Source: Octopus vulgaris
Lineage: Eukaryota
Length of the DNA stretch: 64,000 nucleotides
Direction of reading: 5' to 3'
NCBI GenBank assembly: GCA_951406725.2
Contig: OX597814.1
Coordinates: 4,030,001-4,094,000, forward strand
Below are positions 12,062 through 12,206 of this stretch, in pieces. Made by a program: the position numbers and the translations under genes. The stretch's first letter is position 1. Each line of letters begins with the position of its first letter. The notes under the pieces were generated by a model. The model was not told the DNA's origin and made no database searches. It saw nothing but the letters and a program-made list of their open reading frames with translations.

Positions 12062-12206
12062 ACATTCGAACCCTTCAATCTTCAGTCAAGAACCGGATCA
12101 TCCTAGCAATTTCGGCTGATTAATCTTGAGATCGCTCCGATCCAGCCAACCCCAAGGAAAAACTAAGCTACGAGCGTTAGATTTCTTGGAAGAAAGCCTC
12201 GAATGT
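12062..12206 (-). ncRNA. Candidate rearranged hammerhead, family 3 (diverged copy)
   Basis: Minus strand: ggttg-g-ctggatc-gg-agcgAUC-tcaaga-ttaat-cagcc-GAAA-ttgct-aggat-gatccgg-t-tcttga-CUGAAGA; substitutions preserve pairing via G.U. Confidence 0.75.

What the first reader, a model, noticed from the sequence alone, without database searches (positions are those of the whole stretch)
12062..12206. Within-family substitutions preserve the rearranged fold
Compared with 37621-37693, this minus-strand copy has ggttg, ctggatc and agcgAUC/GAAAttgct, all still paired through G.U or Watson-Crick pairs. The fragment at 31291-31315 has gatctgg, which matches the ccagatc variant, and CUGAUGA instead of CUGAAGA, a change at N7, the one freely variable core position. 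This pattern suggests selection on a hammerhead-like structure in the source elements.
Basis: partly seen in the sequence, partly recalled or inferred. Interest (0 to 1): 0.75.

Follow-up and report, generated by a model that had tools for sequence, protein, structure and literature searches.

The report
Core-opened permuted hammerhead in octopus retroelement
A non-coding repeat with thousands of copies in an animal genome (likely an octopus) keeps every catalytic letter and helix of a hammerhead self-cutting RNA in a scrambled order opened inside the catalytic core, and its shortened genomic copies begin just behind the predicted cut, so it likely cuts its own RNA.

Summary
The 31291 fragment's own subfamily does not restore its pair. 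Genomic copies decay neutrally. The conclusion still holds, on stronger grounds.

The stretch belongs to a non-coding, tandem (about 770-880 nt), (TA)n-targeting retroelement with at least 5,286 core matches. Across nine subfamily representatives all 12 core letters are invariant and N7 takes all four bases. Stems I, II and III pair in every cell, and 10 of 16 pairs change on both sides.

The block order belongs to Eckert's non-circular SGC/CSG class, but the chain is opened between A9 and G10.1 and clamped by two extra helices. That form is outside their six permutations.

5'-truncated copies peak right behind the predicted cut: 108 junctions at +1 against 11 just before it. This suggests cleavage in vivo.

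Read by eye, 9 of 50 published Naiad 3' ends show this split form and 6 show intact type CSG, although Naiads were reported to lack canonical hammerheads. No cleavage assay was run.

The parts
11988..12301 (-). 5'-truncated copy of the non-coding retroelement, subfamily B, between (TA)n tracts
   Evidence: 93.8% to a B tandem unit over 308 nt (12290-11988); match to the A copy from 12301
12192..12206 (-). P0 clamp helix, 5' strand (predicted)
   Evidence: constrained fold
12152..12189 (-). P1 hairpin ending directly before G10.1 (predicted)
   Evidence: sequence; paired for the A copy; partly for this copy
12147..12151 (-). stem II 5' strand starting at G10.1 (GGCUG in the family; GGUUG here, a private change)
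   Evidence: 3 of 5 pairs change on both sides in subfamily H, 100% paired
12139..12145 (-). stem I-II interaction helix, 5' strand
   Evidence: 76% of cells paired, 3 of 7 pairs two-sided (H is misregistered by one column in that alignment)
12124..12136 (-). block S: stem III 3'-side strand, U16.1-C17, predicted cut between 12130 and 12129, stem I 5' strand
   Evidence: junction peak behind this bond
12105..12123 (-). 5-nt linker, stem II 3' strand (CAGCC), GAAA, stem III strand (block G)
12093..12099 (-). interaction helix, 3' strand
12079..12091 (-). stem I 3' strand and CUGAAGA (C3-A9); not followed by stem II
12062..12076 (-). P0 clamp helix, 3' strand, starting 2 nt after A9 (predicted)
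37429..37800 (+). subfamily A copy; ribozyme 37621-37693, predicted cut 37642/37643
37968..38339 (-). inverted, 97% identical second A copy (tail-to-tail pair, as in Penelope-like insertions); ribozyme about 38075-38147
31289..31417 (+). subfamily C 3' fragment starting about 25 nt behind the cut; lacks blocks S and G, so cannot fold a ribozyme
   Evidence: 100% to C over 129 nt

Best explanation
The stretch is one copy of a non-coding, tandemly repeated retroelement, likely mobilised by a Penelope-like element, whose RNA is predicted to fold into a hammerhead ribozyme with scrambled block order and a core opened between A9 and G10.1, and which likely cuts itself at AUC. The 5'->3' order is: P0 strand, P1 hairpin, stem II, interaction helix, stem III strand-UH-stem I, 5-nt linker, stem II-GAAA-stem III, interaction helix, stem I-CUGANGA, P0 strand. 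SHOWN: the sequence order, the covariation, the tandem units, fixed 3' ends at (TA)n, and the peak of 5' junctions at +1 to +12. INFERRED: P0 and P1 hold A9 next to G10.1 so that the normal core assembles; multi-unit transcripts are cut to unit length; a Penelope-like RT acting in trans primes at a (TA)n target from the element's TA-rich 3' end. When it runs off the cut 5' end it leaves a copy starting at +1 to +12. When the RNA is uncut, re-ligated into a circle, or the RT jumps template, it reads through and leaves longer or tandem copies. Selection acts on the transposing master RNAs, not on inserted copies.
For: Family size: 5,286 matches to a core pattern against 1 for the reversed control. 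A generic split-core descriptor hits only the 3 whole copies in the window and 0 in 150 dinucleotide shuffles. It also found an unforeseen subfamily H, in which stems II and III each carry 3 two-sided changes (one of the stem III three comes from F). [quoted passage not shown] E has a compensated one-pair insertion in stem III. The core is invariant and N7 is A, U, G or C. Exact-pattern counts of (TA)n junctions genome-wide: -54: 9; -12: 30; -3..-1: 11; +1..+2: 108; +10..+12: 355; +32..+34: 14. In subfamily E, 13 of 13 listed loci start at +1 and none at -1. Among 26 C insertions picked by their 3' part only, 7 end at +1..+20 and 1 in -126..-1. A second family in this genome has the same order with different stems (400 hits, 0 control), and in L281 it lies downstream of an RT remnant. 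The short linker and interaction helix mirror Eckert's validated SGC/CSG ribozymes. An unpaired base at the 5' end of stem II is tolerated in Penelope hammerheads.
Against: No cleavage assay was run. The minimum-energy nested fold keeps P0, P1 and stem II but replaces stems I and III and pairs part of CUGAAGA. The interaction helix is only 76% paired, with mismatches in A, C, E and F. In constrained folds P0 formed in 9 of 11 copies, not in the D copy or the Naiad copy tested. The largest junction peak is at +10..+12, not +1, and the patterns differ in length and in the subfamilies they cover; only +1 versus -1 shares an identical 3' part. The nine representatives are related, so the shuffle count is not a probability, and the two H rows are one event. 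Eckert et al. assumed the CUGANGA block cannot be interrupted by more than 1-2 nt. No autonomous partner sharing sequence with these units was found.
Confidence: 0.85

Rival explanations
1. It is a conserved structured signal (RT recognition or packaging) or a vestigial ribozyme that no longer cuts; the junction peak reflects a transcription start or an RT stall.
For: No assay. Most full copies read through the site (5,286 intact cores). The +10..+12 peak exceeds +1.
Against: All 12 catalytic letters are fixed while N7 is free, which is the catalytic pattern. The drop falls within 2 nt of the predicted bond (108 vs 11). By inference, an RT arriving from the 3' side has already displaced the partner strands at that point, so structure should not stall it there.
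Confidence: 0.07
2. It cleaves, but only as a dimer or in trans between tandem units, as minimal Penelope hammerheads do, so the opened core is completed by a neighbouring copy.
For: Units lie in tandem. Metazoan Penelope hammerheads are proposed to act as dimers. The single-chain fold needs several pseudoknots.
Against: All three stems are 5-7 bp within one unit. P0 and P1 abut A9 and G10.1 within one unit (also by eye in other phyla). SGC/CSG monomers cleave.
Confidence: 0.06
3. The nested minimum-energy multibranch fold is the selected structure and the hammerhead letters are coincidence.
For: It folds at z=-2.7 against shuffles and shares P0, P1 and stem II.
Against: Its own two helices are 79% and 77% paired with 1 two-sided pair each, against 100% for stems I and III. 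The descriptor has no chance hits. It may still be an inactive alternative conformer.
Confidence: 0.02

Closest known systems
Type-SGC and type-CSG non-circularly permuted hammerhead ribozymes (Eckert et al. 2023, PMC10085705)
   Same: Same cyclic block order, a short linker from stem I to stem II, a helix joining the far sides of stems I and II, and a full core.
   Different: Here block C is itself split (stem II 5' strand at the 5' end, CUGANGA at the 3' end) with two added helices. [quoted passage not shown]
Non-LTR retrozymes and Penelope-like pLTR hammerheads (Cervera and de la Pena 2014, PMC4209133; bioRxiv 10.64898/2026.07.22.740005)
   Same: Non-coding tandem units with one hammerhead each, Penelope-like insertion style, and the proposed cut-and-circularise cycle.
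   Different: Those carry type I hammerheads, often minimal and dimeric; the preprint searched only type I models. Here stems are full length and the order is non-circularly permuted.
Naiad Penelope-like elements (Craig et al. 2021, PMC8557442)
   Same: (TA)n targeting, tandem and inverted insertions. Published Naiad 3' ends, including Naiad_Ovul flagged 'HHR_half_core', show the same split topology by eye.
   Different: The paper states that Naiads lack canonical hammerheads. The window family has no ORF and no detected sequence similarity to the Naiad or other PLE loci fetched, so descent from a Naiad is not shown.

Membership tests
Hammerhead ribozyme (class) | Invariant core C3 U4 G5 A6 G8 A9, G12 A13 A14, A15.1-U16.1, H17; free N7 | tested here: met
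   all 12 invariant in 9 representatives; N7 = A, U, G, C. A minority H17 C>A (still H) in 5 of 30 E copies
Hammerhead ribozyme (class) | Stems I, II and III adjacent to the core with covariation | tested here: met
   100% paired, 10 of 16 pairs two-sided; stem II reaches the core through G10.1-C11.1 but is not covalently next to A9
Hammerhead ribozyme (class) | Site-specific self-cleavage after H17 | not testable with these tools
   indirect only: junction peak
Canonical type I/II/III hammerhead | Cyclic order C-G-S with CUGANGA-stem II-GAAA contiguous | tested here: not met
   no such match at the family copies in the window; no Rfam family at gathering score in 8 loci
Type-SGC / type-CSG hammerhead | Non-circular block order with stem I-linker-stem II and a stem I-II interaction helix | tested here: met
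Type-SGC / type-CSG hammerhead | Intact block C (stem I strand-CUGANGA-stem II strand uninterrupted, 0-1 inserted nt allowed) | tested here: not met
   SGC and CSG descriptors gave no hit in the window or in 787 kb of loci; D and H lack any downstream partner for stem II
Non-LTR retrozyme | Non-coding tandem units, each with a hammerhead | tested here: met
   typical periods B 830-832, C 779-780, F 844-879, D 768, A 769-807, with a few outliers; no shared upstream sequence beyond unit length in 208 copies
Non-LTR retrozyme | The hammerhead is type I | tested here: not met
Non-LTR retrozyme | Accumulates as circular RNA | not testable with these tools
   only assembled contigs of runs guessed to be RNA were available
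Naiad PLE (autonomous) | ORF with N-terminal GIY-YIG and C-terminal RT | tested here: not met
   the window family has no ORF; the separate Naiad-like family has RT remnants upstream of the same fold

The most novel reading that the evidence does not exclude
A seventh natural hammerhead topology, a non-circular permutation opened inside the catalytic core and clamped by two helices, is active in animal genomes. It occurs at Naiad 3' ends from ctenophores, cnidarians, a crustacean and octopuses, with intact type CSG in nematode Naiads. This would overturn the view that Naiads lack hammerheads, define a new class of retrozymes, and show that 5'-junction pile-ups in a genome map ribozyme cleavage in vivo.
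Probability: 0.72. Interest if true: 0.88.

Novelty: new variant of a known kind. Interest (0 to 1): 0.82.

Why it matters
The hammerhead is among the best-studied ribozymes, and the six-permutation scheme assumes that CUGANGA cannot be separated from stem II. A natural, covarying, high-copy form that breaks this widens ribozyme architecture and explains why descriptor and Rfam searches miss it. It would be the first non-circularly permuted hammerhead reported in animal genomes, as far as my searches reach. It offers an explanation for the 'HHR_half_core' entries and the reported absence of canonical hammerheads in Naiads, which that paper used to argue that hammerheads may be dispensable for Penelope-like elements. 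The junction peak also gives a direct handle on the open question of what these ribozymes do in retrotransposition. A construct of about 150 nt tests it.

Tried and rejected
Rfam on the whole window at E<=5: the 150 best rows shown were microsatellite-driven miRNA-type matches; 406 lower rows were not seen. Rfam at gathering score on 8 loci: none. The repeat finder was swamped by microsatellites but showed the inverted pair. Stem II formed with the sequence just after CUGANGA was rejected, because D and H lack it. A pattern search for a changed stem II listed 100 of 355 hits, all scattered private changes or background; H was found another way. My first mutation count showed a false core deficit because it included copies picked by a core pattern; one search repeated it on 183 BLAST-picked copies (groups A, B, C, D, E, F; pattern-picked loci and the small groups A2, C2, G dropped), and the difference vanished (p=0.19 and 0.26). 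Sequencing runs: no RNA holder listed. Four runs guessed to be RNA were contigs only and give no starts, ends or strand. Autonomous partner: none of 208 copies shares upstream sequence beyond a unit; a young RT+GIY-YIG family showed no real similarity to the units. R-scape was not available, so the count of structure pairs was used. Weinberg et al. 2015 (PMC4509812), cited for hammerheads with extra helices, is not held; I could not check whether any variant there interrupts A9-G10.1. Earlier findings of this scan: none overlapping, one unrelated CSG note.

Full report
OBSERVATION. The letters quoted are present. The window holds three whole copies of the motif (37621-37693 +, about 38075-38147 -, 12079-12151 -) and a 3' fragment at 31289-31417. 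The genome has 2.8 Gb in 227 contigs. That it is an octopus is my inference from its size, its microsatellite load and the exact match of a motif from the published Naiad_Ovul consensus. Compared with its subfamily B (38 copies), the 12062 copy's GGTTG and CTGGATC are private C>T changes, each in 3 of 38 copies. AGCGATC is fixed in B. The 31289 fragment belongs to subfamily C, whose partner strand is CCATATC, which leaves a U.C mismatch; its CUGAUGA is fixed in C. In 183 BLAST-picked copies, private non-CpG changes hit the core at 16/2011, stems at 78/7122 and linkers at 33/2762 (p=0.26 and 0.19), and 53 of 96 private stem changes keep a pair. Inserted copies therefore decay neutrally, and two wobble-keeping changes are unremarkable.

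THE ELEMENT. A core pattern matches 5,286 places against 1 for the reversed control. Copies end at a fixed TA-rich 3' end, are variably 5'-truncated and lie in (TA)n. They form tandems with typical periods of 830-832 (B), 779-780 (C), 844-879 (F), 768 (D) and 769-807 (A), with a few outliers, and tail-to-tail pairs as at 37429-38339. The top 40 matches for C and F are about 100% identical, so these subfamilies are young. D and H are about 10-15% diverged from their queries. No shared upstream sequence beyond one unit was seen in 208 copies. Tandem and inverted insertions and (TA)n targeting are Penelope-like traits.

THE FOLD. The order is: P0 strand, P1 hairpin, stem II strand (G10.1...), interaction helix, stem III strand-AUC-stem I strand, 5-nt linker, stem II strand-GAAA-stem III strand, interaction helix, stem I strand-CUGANGA, P0 strand. 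In nine real copies representing A, A2, B, C, D, E, F and H (two rows), all 12 core letters are invariant and N7 is A, U, G or C. [quoted passage not shown] Stem I reads UCAAGA/UCUUGA in A, UCGAGU/ACUCGA in D and UCAGAA/UUCUGA in E. Stem II goes from GGCUG/CAGCC to GGGCA/UGCCC in the H majority of 25 copies. E gains one base on each side of stem III. Slid controls give 14-52% paired and 0 of 500 shuffles reach the score, but the rows are related, so this is not a probability. Among seven majorities without H, 0 of 12 core and 8 of 16 linker positions vary (p=0.008). The rival nested fold scores 79% and 77% in its own helices. A sequence-free descriptor of the split topology hits only the 3 whole window copies and 0 in 150 dinucleotide shuffles of the window. 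In 787 kb of loci it gave 217 family hits, 8 Naiad-type hits and one other, which proved to be subfamily H; intact SGC and CSG descriptors gave none. With the core held open, P0 formed in 9 of 11 copies, starting 0-2 nt after A9 in seven of them; it did not form in the D and Naiad copies tested.

GENOMIC TRACE OF CLEAVAGE. If the RNA is cut after C17, reverse transcription that runs off its 5' end should leave copies beginning just behind that bond. Exact-pattern counts of (TA)n junctions are 9 at -54, 30 at -12, 11 at -3..-1, 108 at +1..+2, 355 at +10..+12 and 14 at +32..+34. All sites offer AT microhomology except +1, which offers only T. The -1 and +1 patterns share the same 3' part (108 vs 11, binomial p=4e-21); the others differ in length and coverage. 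In E, 13 of 13 listed loci start at +1 and none at -1. On the minus strand, where rows appear once per locus, 710 of 1,020 junctions within 30 nt lie in the 11 nt behind the cut. Of 26 distinct C insertions chosen by their 3' part alone, 7 end at +1..+20 and 1 in -126..-1 (30 rows, with overlapping loci of one array merged and the L076 junction read by eye). This is a peak, not a gradient. It is indirect: a transcription start at this bond would look alike.

WIDER OCCURRENCE. Craig et al. 2021 (PMC8557442; I saw passages, the metadata sheet, supplement part 24 and excerpts of File S5) state that Naiads lack canonical hammerheads and flag some as 'HHR_half_core'. I read by eye the last 350-450 nt of 50 of the 54 Naiad consensuses (Plae, Ebur, Tama and Cmel not seen); no script checked them. 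Nine show the split form: Bfor (stem I only 2 bp), 3_Chem, Amil, Anas, Aacu (two mismatches), 2_Movir, EuTe (upstream flank cut off), Obim and Ovul. Esco is partial, with a poor stem II. In Amil, 3_Chem, 2_Movir and Bfor, a P0 helix follows A9 within 0-2 nt and a hairpin precedes G10.1 within 0-1 nt, as here. Six nematode Naiads (1-3_Nbra, Hcon, Hpol, Asuum) show intact type CSG. The other 34 showed neither in the part seen. The octopus Naiad motif is in this genome (400 hits, 0 control; majority), and L281 holds it downstream of an RT remnant (RVT_1 E=1.3e-5, below the Pfam cutoff). Joining the ends of a CSG ribozyme and opening it between A9 and G10.1 gives the split form (inference).

MECHANISM. 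Shown: order, covariation, tandem units, junction peak. Inferred: P0 and P1 hold A9 against G10.1; arrays are transcribed and cut to unit length; a Penelope-like RT in trans primes at (TA)n; run-off gives copies starting at +1..+12, and uncut, circular or template-jumped RNA gives read-through and tandems. Cervera and de la Pena (PMC4209133, passages seen) proposed such a cycle and report an unpaired base at the 5' end of stem II, so this junction tolerates an insertion. The partner RT is unidentified.

COMPARISON AND NOVELTY. Eckert et al. [quoted passage not shown] The motif works like their SGC/CSG ribozymes but fails the intact-block-C test. It also fails the type I test for retrozymes (bioRxiv 10.64898/2026.07.22.740005, passages). 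Passages of PMC3088659, PMC6155905, PMC10162972 and PMC13725137 described no core opened at A9-G10.1. Eight full-text searches returned no report of permuted hammerheads in Naiads or octopus; the other papers listed I saw only as listings. Subscription papers, Weinberg 2015 and bioRxiv supplements were not visible and could hold prior art. Hammerhead numbering and the freedom of N7 rest on established knowledge, recalled.

VERDICT. Observation partly confirmed; interpretation supported on new evidence. New variant of a known kind. Confidence that it is a self-cleaving, core-opened permuted hammerhead 0.85; interest 0.82.

Noticed in passing
Craig 2021 File S5: Naiad-1/2/3_Nbra, Hcon, Hpol, Asuum 3' ends: Complete type-CSG hammerheads with different, well-paired stems in nematode Naiads, read by eye; Eckert et al. 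had only two CSG sequences, from metagenomes.
   Followed up: partly
Craig 2021 File S5: CGi, Sglo, Olur, Tgra, Pmar, 1/2_Chem, 1/2_Skow, 1/2_Pfla 3' ends: A different conserved motif (CGGGUG...GCAGRG...GCUYAC...CACCYG) shared by bivalve, hydrozoan and hemichordate Naiads where no hammerhead is seen; possibly another ribozyme or signal.
   Followed up: no
Craig 2021 File S5: 1_Movir and 4_Chem 3' ends: A CCRGUCACAAG motif resembling the twister consensus printed in Eckert's supplement.
   Followed up: no
L331:2021-4282 (+), also L332, L333, L338, L339: Young Penelope-like family with an intact 753-aa RT + C-terminal GIY-YIG frame, inverted terminal copy, in (TA)n; a candidate trans partner without detected similarity to the units.
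   Followed up: partly
L062:1890-1900 and the matching place in B, D and F units: A CACGTG-type box recurs about 370 nt upstream of the cut after a pyrimidine-rich tract; possibly an internal promoter.
   Followed up: no
window 12388-12465 and 11729-11805 (-), inverted partner at 11608-11683: An unrelated 78-nt repeat, 87% identical, on both sides of the 12062 copy.
   Followed up: no
L250:723-2513; window 37819-37864 and 37917-37985: Subfamily F has a 22-nt internal duplication that lengthens P1; short extra 3'-end pieces lie between the inverted A copies.
   Followed up: no
L135 and rows: A further subfamily (G) with stem I ending in an A-U/U-A variant and CUGAGGA recurs in the listing; not sampled separately.
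   Followed up: no
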